Below are positions 9,281 to 57,153 of a stretch of 64,000 nt of DNA, piece by piece; positions within the stretch are counted from its first letter, which is position 1, and every line of letters starts with the position of its first letter. The stretch spans positions 48,768-112,767 of the IMG/VR virus record IMGVR_UViG_2716884425_000003. One strand, 5' to 3'. A model generated the notes under the pieces. It was not told the origin of the DNA. It saw only the letters and a list, made by a program, of their open reading frames with translations, and did no database searches. This DNA is from a virus. A program made the translations under genes and the position numbers.

Positions 9281-10973
9281 CTGGATATTGTAAAGTTAAA
9301 AGTCCGCTGGTGCTTTGTCCAGTTATATGAACCTGTACGCCAGAAAAGTCAACGAATGATTGCCTGTATCCCGTCATATACCAATCAAAGTCTTGATCTT
9401 TGTACATTCCTTTTTCTAAATATATATGTGTGGTATCAAAACAGGGAGTTCCTGACGCATATTTATTAGTCATCTTAGTTCCAGTCGTATAAGTGTTAGA
9501 CAAGCCAGACTCAATTAATAAACTTGGAGGCGTAATACAAATGCATTCTCCAGATTTATAACCCGAAGTTAAATTCGGCGTAACGTCTACGTACTTAACG
9601 TCACTACCAGCGCTATAAGAATTTGTTACAGTATAAACTGTTGCGTCTTCATTAACTCTAATATTGTCTCCCACACCAATAACTTCTCTTTCTTCATGGT
9701 AGTAAATTCTACCTTGGCCTATAGATCTATCCGTATGAACTTTAGAGTTGCAACAATTTGTTGGGTAGTAGTTTACAATGCCACTTATAGTATGATTTTC
9801 TTGGTTTTCACTTTCGTCATAAAGACCCCCGATTATAACATGGTCCCCAGTATTAAAGGAAGATCCATCTTCAACATAAATAACCTTAGTGCCGGGGTCA
9901 AGACCAGAAATACCCGTGAATCCGACAATTGTTTCATCGGGGGTAAAATTAGAAGTATAACGAGCTACATTCGAGACCCTTACGCCTTCCATATATCCTT
10001 TAAAATAATAACTATGACCGTGATATGGAGTATTGGTATAGAACTTACCTATAGTAGCCCCCCCATGACTAGTATTCTCAATATCGTAGGTGCTAGTTGC
10101 AGTATGCTTAAGGTCTCCATTTAGAAAAAGTCTAAGCGTACCGCTGGACCTCGAAACTGCCGCATGACTCCACGTATTTAAAGAAAGAATCGGTCCAGTA
10201 TTTATTGGGTGAGGGGTAAGACTATTAGCTGTAGTATTAGGACTCTCTACCCAATAAAGTCTACAATTTGCATCATCACTATCAGATGGCCCATTACCAT
10301 CAGCACCTCGGGTCACTAATCCCCACCCAGACCATGAACTATCCCCAAGTAGAGAGCCAAAAATAGACATCGTACTATTTTCTTCAGGCCTTACCCAAGC
10401 TTCAATTGTAAAATCTCCAGTATTAAAATCTATATTACTACTACCAGATATAGAAAGGTAATCCCCACTACCGTCAAAGTATATAGAACTGTCACTATAT
10501 TTAGAAGCTCCAGTTGAATGAATTACATCTCCATAAGCGGTTATTGAATGAGCATGGCTGGAACTATCCGTAAATGTCGTGCTTCCGTGTGAAGTTCCCG
10601 ACGGGGAATTTAATAAAAATGCAGTGTTAGAATCGCTTGAAAATGCTTCTCCACTAGACGCAAGTGCACCAGTGAGTCCCGGTAAATTATTCGGAACACC
10701 GACCGGTGGACCACCAAAATAAAAACCATAAGCTATTTGATTTCTAGGTACATATCTAACTCCATTAACTACTAATTCATTAAAGACTCCAGAGTTAAAA
10801 GTTGCTAGGCTATTCCCGTCGCCACTAACGAGTAGATTTTCGCCACTAATAATTCCACCGCTTATTGTTGGAAAGTTATTATTGTCTATTCCACAAATAG
10901 TTACAGAACCACCATCAATACCACATATTTCATTGGTTTTAATCTTATCTGCTGTGAACGTTTTATTTGACAT
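9273..10973 (-). CDS. LamG-domain virion protein
   Basis: SIYFDGSGDYL...DFTIEAWVRP...WSHAAVSRSSGTLRLFLNG...GYMEGVRVSNVARY. Confidence 0.85.
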   Translation of the reverse strand: MSNKTFTADKIKTNEICGIDGGSVTICGIDNNNFPTISGGIISGENLLVSGDGNSLATFNSGVFNELVVNGVRYVPRNQIAYGFYFGGPPVGVPNNLPGLTGALASSGEAFSSDSNTAFLLNSPSGTSHGSTTFTDSSSHAHSITAYGDVIHSTGASKYSDSSIYFDGSGDYLSISGSSNIDFNTGDFTIEAWVRPEENSTMSIFGSLLGDSSWSGWGLVTRGADGNGPSDSDDANCRLYWVESPNTTANSLTPHPINTGPILSLNTWSHAAVSRSSGTLRLFLNGDLKHTATSTYDIENTSHGGATIGKFYTNTPYHGHSYYFKGYMEGVRVSNVARYTSNFTPDETIVGFTGISGLDPGTKVIYVEDGSSFNTGDHVIIGGLYDESENQENHTISGIVNYYPTNCCNSKVHTDRSIGQGRIYYHEEREVIGVGDNIRVNEDATVYTVTNSYSAGSDVKYVDVTPNLTSGYKSGECICITPPSLLIESGLSNTYTTGTKMTNKYASGTPCFDTTHIYLEKGMYKDQDFDWYMTGYRQSFVDFSGVQVHITGQSTSGLLTLQYPDV

Positions 10974-16055: not shown

Positions 16056-16330
16056 TTGGCAATGCGGTGCATACCACACTGTTAGTACGCTGCACTAATC
16101 ATGTTGTCCAATGTTGTTATCGCCGCTTTTTTAATTACGACTTCTACATGTCGCCATGCAGTTCGGACTATATCTTCGCTTTTTACAGCGTTGGGCGCTC
16201 GTGGAGGGGTTATTGTTGGGACTCACCCTCTAGTCTCTACACCTTCCGGAAGCACTAAGCCCACTTCCGACTTGGCTCGGTATTGTCTTCTGGAGATGTC
16301 TACCGAATTCACCCAATAAGGCCAATTTAT
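16056..16330 (-). ncRNA. Group I intron-type ribozyme, intergenic, apparently circularly permuted (P1 downstream of core)
   Basis: Minus strand: P3 UUGGGUG(16316-10)/CGCCCAA(16197-91); P4 UUCGGU/ACCGAG; R GUAGAGACUAG (16240-30); P8 CGCU-GUAAAA-AGCG; S AAGAUAUAGUCC (16176-65); P9 UGCAUG-GCGA-CAUGUA; candidate omega-G 16109; P1-like hairpin with U.G at 16081-16060. Confidence 0.88.
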
Positions 16331-16336
16331 TTATAT

Positions 16337-16365
16337 ATTATATACTATATTTTGGTGTTAGTCAA
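16337..16365 (-). promoter_or_regulatory. Consensus sigma70 promoter driving the group I RNA
   Basis: TTGACT-17 nt-TATAAT on the minus strand. Confidence 0.85.
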
Positions 16366-16372
16366 ATTATTA

Positions 16373-17812
16373 TTATAAATACCCTTCAAAGGTCTCTGAT
16401 GAATCACAATTAGTTTTTAGGCTTAATAACCCACCAGCGCCGCTTAAATCAGGACTGTAATAATATAAGTTGATATCACCAGTTTGATTATTGTTAATTA
16501 CGATAGACTCTCCGGGAATAGCGCCTGTATTAGTTGCGGTTGGCGCATCAATGATATTAATTTTACCACCCATGTAAGCATGATTATTACATACATAATA
16601 CAAAGTATCAGGAGCCCTACCCGGAACGGTAAAGGCGATATAGTTAGTTCCAACAGCCACTCCACTTTCGTAAAGATTTCCTGAATCTCCACCGCCGGAA
16701 GGATCGGTAGCAATTCTTAAAGGATGTCCATCATTACTAGTTCCAGTCTGATAGAAATAGTAAGTAGAGTCTCTTCTCAAAGAAATTTCTGCTCCTTCAT
16801 CATATCCAAATCCACTAACGTTTATGCCGGTAGCAGAACCAGAAATACCGCTTAAGCCATATCCGTTCGGAGAGCCACTGTACATATATGGGTGTCCATC
16901 GTCTCCCGGGCTAGAAACCGCAGTCTTTGTTTGCACAGACACGTCATAATATGCAGTCTCTGGAGATACAACATAAGAAACACCACTGGTATAATCTGAG
17001 AAACCATTATGAGATCCATCCACTCCAGTACTTAGCCTAAATCTATAACCACTAAACGTAGCGCCTGCGCCCGTGGGCCAGTCTGTTGTAACTTGGTTTC
17101 CACTTTTTAAATTAATTAAATATCTTCCCGAGGTACTAAGTCTAATAGGAAATTGATCAAAACCATCAATCATAAAGTTGTTAGGCGATCGGGCATCTAA
17201 ACTTACATCAATAGTCTCATCATGACAAGAGTAATCAATTGGCTGAGAATAATACTCACCAGTCCTTGTTGCGTAATATACGTCATATTCACTAGCCTCC
17301 GGTAAAGCTTCAACAGTTCCAGATACATGCTTGTATGTAACGATTTCATTTACTGTAAACTCGATATAAGGATGAGGCTGTTGCTTTGTTCCATTGGGAT
17401 TAAGACCGGGCTGCTTTACGTCACTCGAATGATCGTCCCAATACTTTTTATAAAATGATTGAAAAGCTTCGTTTTCTGTTACGTCATAACGATATTTTTT
17501 GATGCTAGCTTGATCATTCTCTACGTATCCATAAGGATAGCTTTTTTTAATTTCTTCGTAAATTGCATCGGCTTGAGCTTTGGTTAAGGTGCTATCGTCT
17601 TTGTATTTCCAAAATCTATTTCCGTATCTATCGAAAGAGTTATTTACGCCACCTGCCCTAGTGAAAGCAACTTTGTCTATAGCCAATAACTGAACAGGCT
17701 TTAAATAAAATCTGGGAGTACTATCAGTGGTTCTATTAAAGGAGTCTTTATTAAAATAAAGATGAACCTTAATACTAAAGCTTCTATTAATTTTATTAGT
17801 CTTAAAACTCAT
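16373..17812 (-). CDS. Virion protein with cupredoxin-like C-terminal domain
   Basis: TYYFYQ...GHPLRI...FTVPGRAPDTLYYVCNNHAYMGGKINI motif (His...Cys-x2-His-x2-Met). Confidence 0.6.
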   Translation of the reverse strand: MSFKTNKINRSFSIKVHLYFNKDSFNRTTDSTPRFYLKPVQLLAIDKVAFTRAGGVNNSFDRYGNRFWKYKDDSTLTKAQADAIYEEIKKSYPYGYVENDQASIKKYRYDVTENEAFQSFYKKYWDDHSSDVKQPGLNPNGTKQQPHPYIEFTVNEIVTYKHVSGTVEALPEASEYDVYYATRTGEYYSQPIDYSCHDETIDVSLDARSPNNFMIDGFDQFPIRLSTSGRYLINLKSGNQVTTDWPTGAGATFSGYRFRLSTGVDGSHNGFSDYTSGVSYVVSPETAYYDVSVQTKTAVSSPGDDGHPYMYSGSPNGYGLSGISGSATGINVSGFGYDEGAEISLRRDSTYYFYQTGTSNDGHPLRIATDPSGGGDSGNLYESGVAVGTNYIAFTVPGRAPDTLYYVCNNHAYMGGKINIIDAPTATNTGAIPGESIVINNNQTGDINLYYYSPDLSGAGGLLSLKTNCDSSETFEGYL

Positions 17813-55850: not shown

Positions 55851-56321
55851 TTAAGCGTTAGCCTTCTTTGCTTGCCTAGCTCGCTTCACTTGTGCGAGCT
55901 TTCGTGCCAGCTTCCGCTTGTTGGCGACCATGCGCTTTTCAGTCATGGTGCGCGTTCCCTGCACCCACGCTACAATCTTGTCGTAGACGGTGGGACTGAT
56001 GGACGAAACATCTCCGTAAAATCCATCGTTGTTAGTGTTACCCGATACGATAACGTCAGGGAGCAACTGCGCTACGGCGCGAACCGTGTTGATGTGCTTC
56101 TGCTCCGTGAGCTTGTCGTTTTTAGTGCCACTGTTGGCGTGGATGGTGTCAAACAGACGACCATCGAACCCAACGCCACCGCTGACGTTGAATCCACACG
56201 CCATCTTGCCAGCTTTACGCTGCTCGACACCGTTGCGGGTTTTACCAGCATACAGGAGAATCTTTCCGTTCTCAAGTTCTGTGCCAGTGATGTAGTTAGT
56301 ATGTGAATGTAGGTTGTTCAT
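55851..56321 (-). CDS. Hypothetical protein with basic C-terminus
   Basis: ORF track; promoter 56359-56387 (TTGACT-GGAT spacer-TAACAT). Confidence 0.7.
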   Translation of the reverse strand: MNNLHSHTNYITGTELENGKILLYAGKTRNGVEQRKAGKMACGFNVSGGVGFDGRLFDTIHANSGTKNDKLTEQKHINTVRAVAQLLPDVIVSGNTNNDGFYGDVSSISPTVYDKIVAWVQGTRTMTEKRMVANKRKLARKLAQVKRARQAKKANA

Positions 56322-56406
56322 CAGTTTTTAGTATATGTTTTTGTCTCGCACTGTTTCTATGTTACTAGATATCCGATTCGTAGTCAACATAAAAATTAAT
56401 AAAATT

Positions 56407-56982
56407 AAAAAAATTGAGGCGGCTGTCGGCGTTGTTGCTTCCAATCACTTTAATGGGTTGACCAACCTCAAATTATCTAAATTAGTGGGAAGATGGATTG
56501 CTGCATTACCATCAAGACCAGTACACAATACAGTTCAGTTTTACCAGTCTACTAAAACTACGAGAGTCATACGATTGCACTCTCTCAAGTAGCCTCATGC
56601 CTTTCCCCTTATGGTGGAGGGATATTCAGCCATTCCCTTGGGGCAACCGTCGCCGCCCCAAAATTTATAGCCCTCGGTTACGACAAGGTCTGCCGACCAA
56701 GTCTCGCAAGGACATCCTGCCTGTGCCACATGACTGCACCCAGCTTTGTGCGGATTGCGACTCCGCTGTCTCTAAGGTTTCGACACCTTAAAGGCTGAAC
56801 AGGATTAAGTTATTGCATAGGCCGCTACCTCTACGGGCGTTTAGTGTTCTTCACCTATGCTGCTGGTGCTTCCTCGTCCCTAACAGGGCGCGTACCCTGT
56901 TCGCTACGTTAGGCTTGCCAAGACTGTGTTTCGTCTCCCAGCAAAATTGTTTCAAAGATCGTGGAGGTGTTACCCTCACTGT
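56407..56982 (-). ncRNA. Large (~575 nt) highly structured non-coding RNA of unknown class
   Basis: Dedicated promoter (56989-57017), no credible minus-strand ORF, >10 hairpins and multibranch stems whose G.U pairs work only on the minus strand, terminal stem plus U-run. Confidence 0.75.
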
Positions 56983-56988
56983 TTTAAT

Positions 56989-57017
56989 AGTATACCGCAC
57001 ATCCGGTTTCAGTGCAA
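56989..57017 (-). promoter_or_regulatory. sigma70-type promoter with GGAT spacer motif driving the large ncRNA
   Basis: TTGCAC-tgaaaccGGATgtgcgg-TATACT. Confidence 0.8.
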
Positions 57018-57049
57018 GTCTTTTTTTACTTTTTTTTACTTAAGTTTAG

Positions 57050-57087
57050 GCTTGACAAGGGCGGGACCGGTCCCGCGGGTGTCAAGC
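57050..57087. repeat. Composite palindromic element copy 7 (symmetric form)
   Basis: GCTTGACA-agg-GCGGGACCGGTCCCGC-ggg-TGTCAAGC. Confidence 0.9.
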
Positions 57088-57107
57088 AAAAAGTTTCCCC
57101 AATGGCA

Positions 57108-57133
57108 AAAAAAATCCCCGCCCGAAGGCGGGG
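57108..57133 (-). terminator. Rho-independent terminator
   Basis: CCCCGCC-TTCG-GGCGGGG plus U-run; same hairpin as at 12287-12304. Confidence 0.85.
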
Positions 57134-57153
57134 GGTGTGTTTGTAGGTTTGGC

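What the first reader, a model, noticed from the sequence alone, without database searches (positions are those of the whole stretch)
56407..57017. ~575-nt ornate non-coding RNA with dedicated promoter and terminator
Seen in sequence: a TTGCAC-17-TATACT promoter opens a 0.57-kb minus-strand tract with no credible ORF, ending in a stem (UUGAGG/CCUCAA enclosing GUUGGU/GCCGAC) plus U-run. It is packed with helices: AACAGGG/CCCUGUU (56901-882), GCAUAGG/CCUAUGC enclosing sub-stems, AUCCUG/CAGGAU enclosing a multibranch (UAAGGU/ACCUUA, GCGGA/UCCGC, GUGC/GCAC), GGGGCGGC-GACG-GUUGCCCC, AGGGA/UCCCU, GAGAGU/ACUCUC, UAGUUUUA/UAAAACUG, GAUGG/CCAUC. Several need G.U pairs that only work on this strand. A boxA-like GAUCUUUGAAA lies near the 5' end. 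Known large phage-associated structured RNAs (GOLLD, ROOL) or OLE/HEARO are the size class to compare; I cannot assign it. It may be a new class expressed early.
Basis: partly seen in the sequence, partly recalled or inferred. Interest (0 to 1): 0.82.

Follow-up and report, generated by a model that had tools for sequence, protein, structure and literature searches.

The report
Modular phage RNA gene around manA
This gene-free 0.58-kb stretch of an uncultured marine phage is a self-contained RNA gene: an rRNA-style anti-termination leader followed by a chain of separately folding RNA modules, one of which is the known "manA" RNA, which a 2026 preprint reports to build RNA cages in vitro.

Summary
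Window 57017-56407 (minus strand) is an ORF-free, strand-specifically folded unit, bracketed by a sigma-70-type promoter and a hairpin plus U7.

It is not one new giant RNA.
- **Known part:** the 3' third (56660-56482) is the Rfam family manA (RF01745; 69.5 bits, cut-off 55.2).
- **The rest:** a 5' hairpin plus an rrn-type boxA (GAUCUUUGAAA), then four further modules: A, H, B1 and B2.
- **Modules come and go:** the nearest relative (L003) lacks A, B1 and B2 cleanly. In other relatives B1 sits after manA. A, H and B1 also occur in phage RNA arrays that have no manA.
- **Support for the folds:** B1 and H match nothing in Rfam 15 and show covariation; in B1, 14 of 27 pairs carry compensatory changes.
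- **A wider family:** 63 marine phage cassettes share manA with shuffled accessory modules. In the cassettes read by eye a terminator and a fresh promoter usually follow.

I read it as a stand-alone, boxA-protected, modular non-coding RNA unit rather than a riboswitch leader. This fits a 2026 preprint showing that manA RNAs self-assemble into cages. Function and processing are inferred, not shown.

The scan has noted free-standing manA genes and boxA-led modular phage RNA islands on other DNA (e1-5319818, e1-4387591, e1-5376152, e1-1195242).

The parts
56989..57040 (-). Promoter: A-rich upstream tract (57040-57019), -35 TTGCAC (57017-57012), 17-nt spacer containing CGGATGT, -10 TATACT (56994-56989). 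The predicted start is about 56982.
   Evidence: Read. The same arrangement heads the cassette in L003, L004/L006 and L092 and, with variant hexamers, most other cassettes.
56961..56979 (-). 5' leader hairpin GUGAGGG-UAACA-CCUCCAC (boxB-like position).
   Evidence: Folded. 16 of 25 distinct leaders fold into a stem of at least 4 pairs just before boxA, with varying stems in most (GAUGAGG/CCUUAUC, GGCAGC/GCCGCU, GAUUGGG/CUCAAUC).
56950..56960 (-). boxA-like element GAUCUUUGAAA, followed by the AU-rich linker CAAUUUU (56949-56943).
   Evidence: GNUCUUUGARA is present in 37 of 52 cassettes with enough upstream sequence: 1.37 per kb against 0.08 per kb in all fetched loci. The G before it is invariant in all 36 aligned instances. 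It matches 12 of 13 positions of the B. subtilis rrn boxA consensus AUGAUCUUUGAAA, which likewise follows a small 5' hairpin and binds NusB (PMC13753749). The gamma-proteobacterial consensus is GYTCTTTAANA (PMC5725501).
56862..56942 (-). Module A: 81-nt branched hairpin closed by GCUGG/CCAGC, containing AACAGGG-UACGCG-CCCUGUU.
   Evidence: Absent from the nearest relative L003 and from L081. Present in L092, L075/L062 and L064, and in L124 in the order H-A without manA. MFE z -2.68. Its sequence is very conserved, so covariation is weak: 1 compensatory pair and 5 pairs changed on one side only, all to G-U, out of 28.
56815..56860 (-). Hairpin H: the stem GCAUAGG/CCUAUGC closes a conserved 30-nt loop region (GGUGA..AAACG.CCG..AGAGG.A.CGGCC).
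   Evidence: Found in 22 of 63 cassettes, before or after manA. In 16 distinct sequences, 5 of the 8 outer-stem pairs covary. It also occurs without manA in L121-L124. No Rfam match.
56714..56805 (-). Module B1: 92-nt multi-stem motif. The outer stem AUCCUG/CAGGAU and CAGC/GCUG enclose two hairpins (one with the conserved loop NUCGCAA), followed by the hairpin GUGC-AGUCAUGUG-GCAC.
   Evidence: In seven distinct copies 98.9% of cells are paired, 14 of 27 pairs carry compensatory changes, and slid controls give 29-50%. It lies after manA in L092, L071/L109 and L108, and in arrays without manA in L118, L119 and L120. No Rfam match at E up to 10.
56670..56713 (-). Module B2: 44-nt hairpin GUCCUUG...CGAGGGC, then the AU-rich linker UAUAAAUUU (56669-56661).
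   Evidence: MFE -20.4 kcal/mol, z -3.38, 0 of 200 shuffles as good. No homolog was found in any fetched locus. It is absent from L003 together with B1. One metatranscriptome contig variant changes a C-G pair to U-G.
56482..56660 (-). manA RNA domain (Rfam RF01745).
   Evidence: 69.5 bits against a gathering score of 55.2, E 1.3e-15, full model 1-192. On 50 distinct subfamily sequences 97.2% of cells are paired and 25 of 47 pairs carry compensatory changes, the pseudoknot included.
56407..56471 (-). 3' conserved branched hairpin (UUGAGG.../...CCUCAA) plus U7: a presumed intrinsic terminator.
   Evidence: Read. Conserved in L003, L004/L006, L005, L071, L092 and L109, with an invariant interior (UUAAAG.GA, AACGCC) and a covarying outer stem (GAGG/CCUC, GCGG/CCGC, GUGG/CCAC). 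It is weak as a plain hairpin (z -0.49) and the terminator scan did not call it because the loop is too large.
56359..56387 (-). Separate promoter-like site of the next gene (TTGACT-17-TAACAT); not part of the RNA unit.
   Evidence: Conserved in L003, L092, L109 and L071.

Best explanation
The tract is a stand-alone, modular non-coding RNA transcription unit of an uncultured marine tailed phage.

**Transcription (inferred).** A strong host-type promoter with an A-rich upstream tract starts an untranslated RNA of about 575 nt. Its first 35 nt are a small hairpin plus an rrn-type boxA. I infer that this recruits host NusB/NusE and the other Nus factors, so that RNA polymerase resists Rho while it copies a long RNA that carries no ribosomes.

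**Modular anatomy (shown by comparison).** Then follow five independently folding domains joined by AU-rich single-stranded linkers: module A, hairpin H, module B1, hairpin B2 and the manA RNA. A conserved branched hairpin plus a U-run ends the unit. The modules are separable parts. Relatives carry the same promoter, leader, manA and tail with other sets and orders of modules, and A, H and B1 also occur in phage RNA arrays that lack manA.

**Function (inferred).** manA acts here as an RNA product in its own right, not as a switch for a downstream gene. The likeliest activity is the one reported for manA RNAs in vitro: self-assembly through loop-loop contacts into pentamer-based closed particles. 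The accessory modules are either released at the AU-rich linkers, or at tRNA-like modules in relatives, as in phage tRNA/stable-RNA clusters, or they stay attached to the manA scaffold.
For: - **Unit boundaries:** promoter, leader and terminator were read directly and are conserved.
- **manA:** hit above the gathering score; fold supported by 25 of 47 compensatory pairs in 50 sequences.
- **Clean presence/absence:** A, B1 and B2 are missing from L003, whose neighbouring protein is 97% identical. B1 is moved behind manA in L092, L109 and L108.
- **63 cassettes:** 63 distinct cassettes were tallied by motif patterns: boxA 38, tRNA-like 29, H 22, G 11, tail 7, B1 5, A 5.
- **Covariation:** B1 and H.
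- **Modules without manA:** A, H and B1 occur in arrays lacking manA.
- **boxA:** 17-fold enriched in the leaders. It matches the hairpin-plus-AUGAUCUUUGAAA leader of B. subtilis rrn operons, which NusB binds (PMC13753749).
- **Downstream context:** in the cassettes read by eye the next gene differs (a 156-aa ORF, DUF932, a lipoprotein and others) and has its own promoter after a U-run.
- **tRNA arrays:** in cyanophage S-CREM1 manA abuts tRNA-Leu and tRNA-Asn inside a tRNA array.
- **Cages:** manA RNAs form decamers, octamers and a 60-mer cage in vitro (bioRxiv 10.64898/2026.07.01.735769).
- **RNA libraries:** contigs of four marine metatranscriptomes cover parts of the cassette, including variants with and without B1+B2.
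Against: - No direct evidence of a discrete transcript, of its ends or of processing. The RNA-library data are assembled contigs and could contain DNA.
- NusB/E binding to this boxA is untested and the host is unknown.
- The terminal hairpin is weak thermodynamically (z -0.49), so some read-through into the next gene is possible.
- In P-SSM2 manA lies 16 nt before purL. In L041/L074 it lies between two genes with only a terminator after it. Both contexts are compatible with cis-regulation.
- Cage formation was shown for other manA variants, as isolated domains, in vitro, in a preprint. Nothing shows that this copy, embedded in 575 nt, assembles.
- Modules A and B2 have little or no covariation support.
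Confidence: 0.72

Rival explanations
1. Riboswitch or cis-regulatory leader. manA senses a ligand, and the 3' hairpin plus U-run is its expression platform, gating read-through into the 156-aa gene downstream.
For: Rfam and Weinberg et al. 2010 class manA as a cis-regulatory riboswitch candidate in 5' UTRs. P-SSM2 manA lies 16 nt before purL. In L041/L074 manA is followed only by a terminator and the next ORF. The same 156-aa gene follows the cassette in the closest relatives. The terminal hairpin is not a strong terminator.
Against: The downstream gene has its own conserved promoter-like site. The distance from manA to the tail hairpin varies from 10 nt to about 105 nt because a whole module (B1) can be inserted between them with the same tail, which argues against aptamer-terminator competition. 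The downstream gene differs between cassettes. A boxA leader and up to about 320 nt of extra modules precede the aptamer. In S-CREM1 manA is flanked by tRNAs, not by an ORF.
Confidence: 0.12
2. One large ornate RNA of a new class. All about 575 nt fold into a single architecture comparable to GOLLD, ROOL or OLE.
For: Size class, dense helices, phage origin and a dedicated promoter and terminator. The whole-tract MFE is significantly low on the minus strand only.
Against: A third of it is manA. Modules are cleanly deleted, inserted or re-ordered between near-identical phages and occur separately elsewhere. Every supported helix is local to one module. No match to any large-RNA family.
Confidence: 0.08
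3. Polycistronic precursor only. The primary transcript has no function as a whole and is cut at the AU-rich linkers, or by RNase P/Z at tRNA-like modules in relatives, into separate small stable RNAs that act independently.
For: AU-rich single-stranded linkers (CAAUUU-type) separate all modules. 29 of 63 cassettes matched the tRNA-like T-arm pattern; in L094 the two matches are ordinary tRNA genes. The module has a roughly 7-bp acceptor stem and is followed by RACA or ACCA. manA sits between tRNAs in S-CREM1. Phage T4 makes stable RNAs of unknown function from its tRNA cluster (my own knowledge, not checked here).
Against: The window itself has no tRNA-like module and the phage record has no tRNA gene. 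No cleavage data exist. This is a variant of the best explanation rather than an opposite.
Confidence: 0.3

Closest known systems
manA RNA motif (Rfam RF01745; Weinberg et al. 2010, PMC2864571)
   Same: Window 56660-56482 matches the full model above the gathering score. It has the P1 hairpin with a GACG loop, the GGGAA/UUCCC pseudoknot, CUGAAUA, the ACUGUA loop and the terminal GGUAAUGCAGCAAUCC hairpin. The habitat is marine and phage-borne.
   Different: It is not in a 5' UTR. It sits inside a promoter-to-terminator non-coding unit behind a boxA leader and four other modules. In this subfamily the two small central hairpins of the Rfam model are replaced by one hairpin with a nearly invariant loop, AGAGUGCAAUCGUAUGA.
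rRNA operon leader antitermination site (5' hairpin/boxB + boxA; NusB-NusE-NusA-NusG-SuhB complex)
   Same: A strong promoter with an A-rich upstream tract is followed by a small hairpin and then GAUCUUUGAAA. This is the arrangement and the sequence described for B. subtilis rrn operons (PMC13753749). It precedes a long, untranslated, highly structured RNA.
   Different: There is no rRNA and no recognisable boxC. It is phage-encoded, the host is unknown and binding is untested. Some relatives start boxA 5-7 nt after the -10 box without a hairpin, and one lineage has a hairpin plus U-run instead.
Phage tRNA / stable-RNA clusters (cyanophage S-CREM1 tRNA array with wcaG, manA and abiF; T4 tRNA cluster with species 1 and 2 RNAs)
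   Same: Several structured RNAs are strung head to tail in one non-coding stretch of a large phage. manA is one of them in S-CREM1, directly abutting tRNA-Leu and tRNA-Asn. Relatives of this window carry a tRNA-like module before manA.
   Different: The window has no tRNA or tRNA-like module, and its partners (A, H, B1, B2) are undescribed motifs. The T4 comparison rests on my own knowledge.
GOLLD and ROOL large phage-associated RNAs
   Same: Phage-borne and often near tRNAs. Like manA (preprint), they are reported to self-assemble into RNA-only multimeric particles; for GOLLD and ROOL this rests on my own knowledge.
   Different: No sequence or structure match. Those are single large domains of 600-800 nt, whereas here the large size comes from chaining small separable modules.

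Membership tests
manA RNA (RF01745) | Covariance-model score at or above Rfam's gathering score over the full model | tested here: met
   69.5 bits against 55.2, model positions 1-192, E 1.3e-15. Relatives score 69.5-77.9 bits.
manA RNA (RF01745) | Consensus fold: P1, a pseudoknot between the 5' GGGAG-type strand and the 3' CUCCC-type strand, an internal multi-stem and a terminal hairpin | tested here: met
   47 pairs were mapped from the Rfam alignment onto 50 distinct subfamily sequences. 97.2% are paired and 25 pairs carry compensatory changes. The pseudoknot pair at columns 32-176 is AU in 27 and UA in 16. Slid controls give 37-52%.
manA RNA (RF01745) | Location in the 5' UTR of a protein gene (basis of its 'cis-regulatory' typing) | tested here: not met
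   A terminator-like hairpin plus U7 and a separate promoter lie between manA and the next ORF. Neighbours vary between cassettes.
manA RNA (RF01745) | Self-assembly into pentamer-based closed oligomers (preprint 10.64898/2026.07.01.735769) | not testable with these tools
   Needs SEC or cryo-EM of this variant. Several long loop stretches are invariant or nearly so across 50 sequences, which would fit contact surfaces but proves nothing.
boxA / Nus-factor antitermination site | Match to the boxA consensus within the first tens of nucleotides of the transcript | tested here: met
   ACGAUCUUUGAAA matches the B. subtilis rrn consensus AUGAUCUUUGAAA at 12 of 13 positions. Against GYTCTTTAANA it differs at positions 2 and 8. 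It lies 22-32 nt after the predicted start and is conserved in 37 of 52 cassettes.
boxA / Nus-factor antitermination site | Binding of NusB-NusE and resistance to Rho | not testable with these tools
   Requires EMSA or NMR and in vitro or in vivo termination assays. The host is unknown.
Riboswitch | Aptamer coupled to an overlapping expression platform directly controlling a downstream ORF | tested here: not met
   The spacing between manA and the tail hairpin varies from 10 to about 105 nt through insertion of module B1. The downstream gene has its own promoter. No ligand is known.
GOLLD, ROOL, OLE, HEARO, RNase P RNA, tmRNA, tRNA | Match to the family covariance model, or ARAGORN for tRNA and tmRNA | tested here: not met
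   No hit at the gathering score in the window nor at E up to 10 in 56300-57150. ARAGORN found nothing in the window or in the whole record.

The most novel reading that the evidence does not exclude
The manA domain is a self-assembling scaffold, and the shuffled modules (A, H, B1, B2, and the tRNA-like module in relatives) are covalently attached, swappable cargo or surface decorations. The phage would then make a multivalent RNA particle that displays many copies of decoys, for example tRNA-like or protein-binding hairpins, to capture or concentrate host factors early in infection. The boxA leader would guarantee full-length synthesis. That would be a natural, modular RNA-only compartment with exchangeable payloads.
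Probability: 0.12. Interest if true: 0.88.

Novelty: new variant of a known kind. Interest (0 to 1): 0.62.

Why it matters
manA has been an orphan 'riboswitch candidate' since 2010, and a 2026 preprint shows that it builds RNA cages in vitro without knowing its biology.

- **Genomic context.** In a large group of marine phages manA is the constant member of a dedicated, rrn-style (boxA-led), terminator-bounded non-coding unit. This is what one expects of an abundant RNA product rather than a gene switch.
- **New partner motifs.** At least two of its shuffling partners (B1 and H) are conserved motifs absent from Rfam 15.
- **Concrete constructs.** The natural variants give ready-made constructs for testing whether manA particles carry appended RNAs: full-length, L003-like without A, B1 and B2, and L092-like with B1 moved.
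- **More phage boxA units.** The finding adds phage non-coding RNA arrays to the short list of boxA-controlled transcription units beyond rRNA.

Tried and rejected
- **Phage collection, DNA:** blastn of the 851-nt region and of manA alone against 50,697 phage records gave no real match.
- **Phage collection, protein:** the terminase is only about 26% identical to Bacillus and Clostridium phage proteins, so no cultured relative and no host could be named.
- **Bacterial genomes:** a scan of one genome per bacterial species with the manA-subfamily pattern gave 0 hits.
- **Wasted scan:** a viral-contig scan for the tail hairpin used the wrong spacer (13 N instead of 11). Its four hits (L013-L016) are chance matches in coding DNA.
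- **Chance matches:** the bare 16-mer GGTAATGCAGCAATCC gave mostly chance matches; these were discarded.
- **Rfam for the other parts:** searches at E up to 10 found no family for the 5' 330 nt of the window or for the tRNA-like modules of relatives.
- **Module B2:** no homolog found.
- **Module A:** too conserved for a covariation test.
- **Automatic tally of terminators and next ORFs:** my script was unreliable (it missed the window's own terminator and called spurious ORFs inside the RNA). The claim that a terminator plus a fresh promoter follows the cassette therefore rests on the dozen cassettes read by eye.
- **Read laying:** it returned only assembled contigs of RNA libraries, which cannot show starts, ends, strand or level.
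- **Own genome:** no second copy of any module and no other boxA outside coding DNA.
- **Rejected readings:** a protein-coding reading of the 97-aa plus-strand ORF 56498-56791, because the compensatory pattern and the non-triplet indel cut through it; a tmRNA or Y-RNA identity for the tRNA-like module, because ARAGORN and Rfam were negative.

Full report
**1. The observation.**
On the minus strand the upstream DUF932 gene (58089-57154; Pfam PF06067) ends in a strong terminator (57133-57116 plus U8). After a palindromic element comes an A-rich tract. Then come -35 TTGCAC (57017-57012), a 17-nt spacer and -10 TATACT (56994-56989).

The next roughly 575 nt hold only short ORFs. One of these starts upstream of the -10 box, and indels between relatives interrupt all of them. 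The tract ends in the stem UUGAGG.../...CCUCAA (56471-56414) plus U7 (56413-56407). A separate promoter-like site (TTGACT-17-TAACAT, 56387-56359) then precedes the 156-aa ORF (56321-55851).

Folding is strand-specific: z -2.45 on the minus strand against -0.67 on the plus strand.

**2. The known part.**
Rfam at gathering thresholds finds the manA RNA motif (RF01745) at 56660-56482 on the minus strand: 69.5 bits against 55.2, over the full model. A permissive search (E up to 10) of 56300-57150 finds nothing else. In particular there is no GOLLD, ROOL, OLE, HEARO, RNase P RNA or tmRNA, and ARAGORN finds no tRNA or tmRNA.

I mapped the Rfam fold onto 50 distinct sequences of this manA subfamily.
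- 97.2% of cells are paired.
- 25 of 47 pairs carry compensatory changes, the pseudoknot included.
- Slid controls give 37-52%.

**3. Origin and relatives.**
The window lies in an IMG/VR virus record of 136.5 kb. The record has phage structural and replication genes and no close cultured relative; the terminase is about 26% identical to the nearest.

Relatives were fetched in three ways: through the neighbouring proteins, through a manA 16-mer in viral contigs, and through a 40-nt manA-subfamily pattern in metagenomes. Together with the window they give 63 distinct cassettes, largely from marine samples by their record names.

**4. The tract is modular.**
The nearest relative, L003, has a neighbouring protein 97% identical. 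It carries the same promoter, leader, hairpin H, manA and tail, but cleanly lacks 56942-56862 (module A, 81 nt) and about 56804-56661 (modules B1 and B2 with their linker). Other relatives differ as follows.
- L092 has A and H before manA, but B1 after it.
- L109 has a tRNA-like module and H before manA, and B1 after it.
- L081 equals L075 minus module A.

A tally by motif patterns over the 63 cassettes gives boxA 38, tRNA-like T-arm pattern 29, H 22, a 'G' module (GUGCUGGNUUACAGGCC) 11, the tail motif 7, B1 5 and A 5, in many orders. In L094 the two T-arm matches are ordinary tRNA genes. The architecture boxA-A-H-B1-B2-manA-tail was seen only in the window.

**5. Evidence for each module.**
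- **B1 (56805-56714).** Seven distinct copies, 98.9% of cells paired, 14 of 27 pairs with compensatory changes, slid controls 29-50%. It also occurs in L118, L119 and L120, whose fetched loci hold no manA at Rfam's threshold. L120 reads promoter, tRNA-like module, B1. In L119, B1 lies about 40 nt before an ORF.
- **H (56860-56815).** 16 distinct sequences; 5 of the 8 outer-stem pairs covary around a nearly invariant 30-nt interior. It is found without manA in L121-L124.
- **A (56942-56862).** z -2.68. Five copies, including one in L124 in the order H-A without manA. The sequence is almost invariant, so there is only one compensatory pair.
- **B2 (56713-56670).** A stable hairpin (z -3.38) with no homolog found.
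- **Tail.** A conserved interior and a covarying outer stem, but weak stability (z -0.49).
- All supported helices are local to one module. AU-rich single-stranded linkers separate the modules.

**6. The leader.**
GAUCUUUGAAA (56960-56950) directly follows a small hairpin (56979-56961), about 22 nt into the predicted transcript.
- GNUCUUUGARA occurs in the leader of 37 of 52 cassettes with enough upstream sequence. This is a 17-fold enrichment, and the preceding G is invariant in all 36 aligned instances.
- It lies either after a hairpin, mostly with a varying stem (16 of 25 distinct leaders), or 5-7 nt after the -10 box.
- A 2026 mBio paper describes exactly this arrangement for B. subtilis rrn operons: a small 5' hairpin, then the boxA consensus AUGAUCUUUGAAA, and it shows NusB binding (PMC13753749).
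- The gamma-proteobacterial consensus is GYTCTTTAANA (PMC5725501).

Function in antitermination is inferred.

**7. Stand-alone product or cis-regulator?**
For a stand-alone product:
- The unit lies between two terminators and has its own strong promoter.
- The next gene has its own promoter.
- The cassette sits at different genome places, before different genes, in relatives.
- The spacing between manA and the terminal hairpin changes from 10 to about 105 nt when B1 is inserted.
- In cyanophage S-CREM1 manA abuts tRNA-Leu and tRNA-Asn within a tRNA array.

For cis-regulation:
- P-SSM2 manA lies 16 nt before purL.
- In L041/L074 manA follows a gene's stop codon and is followed by only a terminator and the next ORF.

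I weigh this about 6 to 1 for a stand-alone RNA in this window.

**8. Likely function.**
Weinberg et al. 2010 proposed manA as a riboswitch candidate. [quoted passage not shown] A dedicated, rrn-like, high-output transcription unit is the genomic context one would expect for such a stoichiometric RNA product.

Whether the appended modules are cleaved off or ride on the particle is open. Relatives have tRNA-like modules with a roughly 7-bp acceptor stem and a T-arm, followed by RACA or ACCA and then AUUU. These are plausible RNase P/Z handles, but the window has none.

**9. Expression.**
Six public RNA runs hold part of the stretch. Contigs of four marine metatranscriptomes lie on the cassette. 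They include forms that skip B1+B2 (joints 56654>56805, 56665>56813, 56662>56860), one 158-nt contig that is B1+B2 itself, and a loose end that reads B1 after manA. This confirms the modular polymorphism in nature. Being contigs, it does not prove transcription or define ends.

**10. Novelty.**
The manA domain is known. As far as my searches of the literature reach, these are not described:
- the boxA-led, terminator-bounded modular unit;
- motifs B1 and H, both absent from Rfam 15;
- the shuffling of modules.

Within this scan, similar readings were made on other genomes: a free-standing manA gene in a jumbo phage (e1-5319818), a modular RNA island with a manA-like head (e1-4387591), a manA-like gene with boxA (e1-5376152), and boxA-punctuated phage RNA operons (e1-1195242). 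I reached the same reading independently here and add the module comparison and the covariation.

Noticed in passing
window 16144-16401 (-): Group I intron hit (RF00028, 57.9 bits against 50) between ORFs in the structural region.
   Followed up: no
window 57085-57050 (-); L006 3709-3738: Palindromic element CTTGACAC-CCGCGGGACCGGTCCCGC-CCTTGTCAAG. It lies just upstream of the cassette promoter here and just downstream of the cassette terminator in L006. It recurs after terminators in this early region (see e1-5348313).
   Followed up: partly
L004 3102-3234, L005 7826-7965, L019, L109 and others (the T-arm pattern matched in 29 of 63 cassettes): A 140-175-nt tRNA-like module. It has a roughly 7-bp acceptor-type stem with many covarying forms, a D-loop-like AGUCUGGUAGC in some copies, and a T-arm GGUUCGAAUCC. 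It is followed by RACA (ACCA in L084) and then AUUU. ARAGORN does not call it and it is not in Rfam. In L025 it is reduced to the acceptor stem capped by GAAA.
   Followed up: partly
L005 8215-8330, L018, L025, L108 and others (11 of 63 cassettes): Another recurrent module, starting GUGGUGCUGGRUUACAGGCCAYG, found before or after manA. No Rfam match in L005.
   Followed up: no
L075 / L064 / L081 / L054 leaders: One cassette lineage lacks boxA. Its leader has a hairpin followed by GGGUUUGUUUUUUUGAUAAUUU, which looks like a leader terminator or attenuator.
   Followed up: no
OP535465 (S-CREM1) 9745-10643 = L111 1246-2144: wcaG, manA and abiF motifs are interleaved with tRNA-Met, Leu, Asn and Gly in one array. 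manA is separated from tRNA-Leu by 1 nt and shares its last base with tRNA-Asn.
   Followed up: partly
L119 6434-6525: Module B1 in a higher-GC phage contig, about 40 nt upstream of an ORF with a Shine-Dalgarno-like AAAGGAG and behind a long GC-rich structured stretch. B1 may also occur in 5' UTR-like settings.
   Followed up: no
L094 (oriented), about 310-480 nt after manA: Two ordinary tRNA genes follow the manA cassette and its terminator-like hairpin in this marine contig.
   Followed up: no
window 56364-56322 (-): The 5' UTR of the downstream 156-aa gene begins ...ACAGUGCGAGAC..., which resembles the start of the cassette leader (ACAGUGAGGG). Promoter-proximal sequence may be shared among these early promoters.
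   Followed up: no
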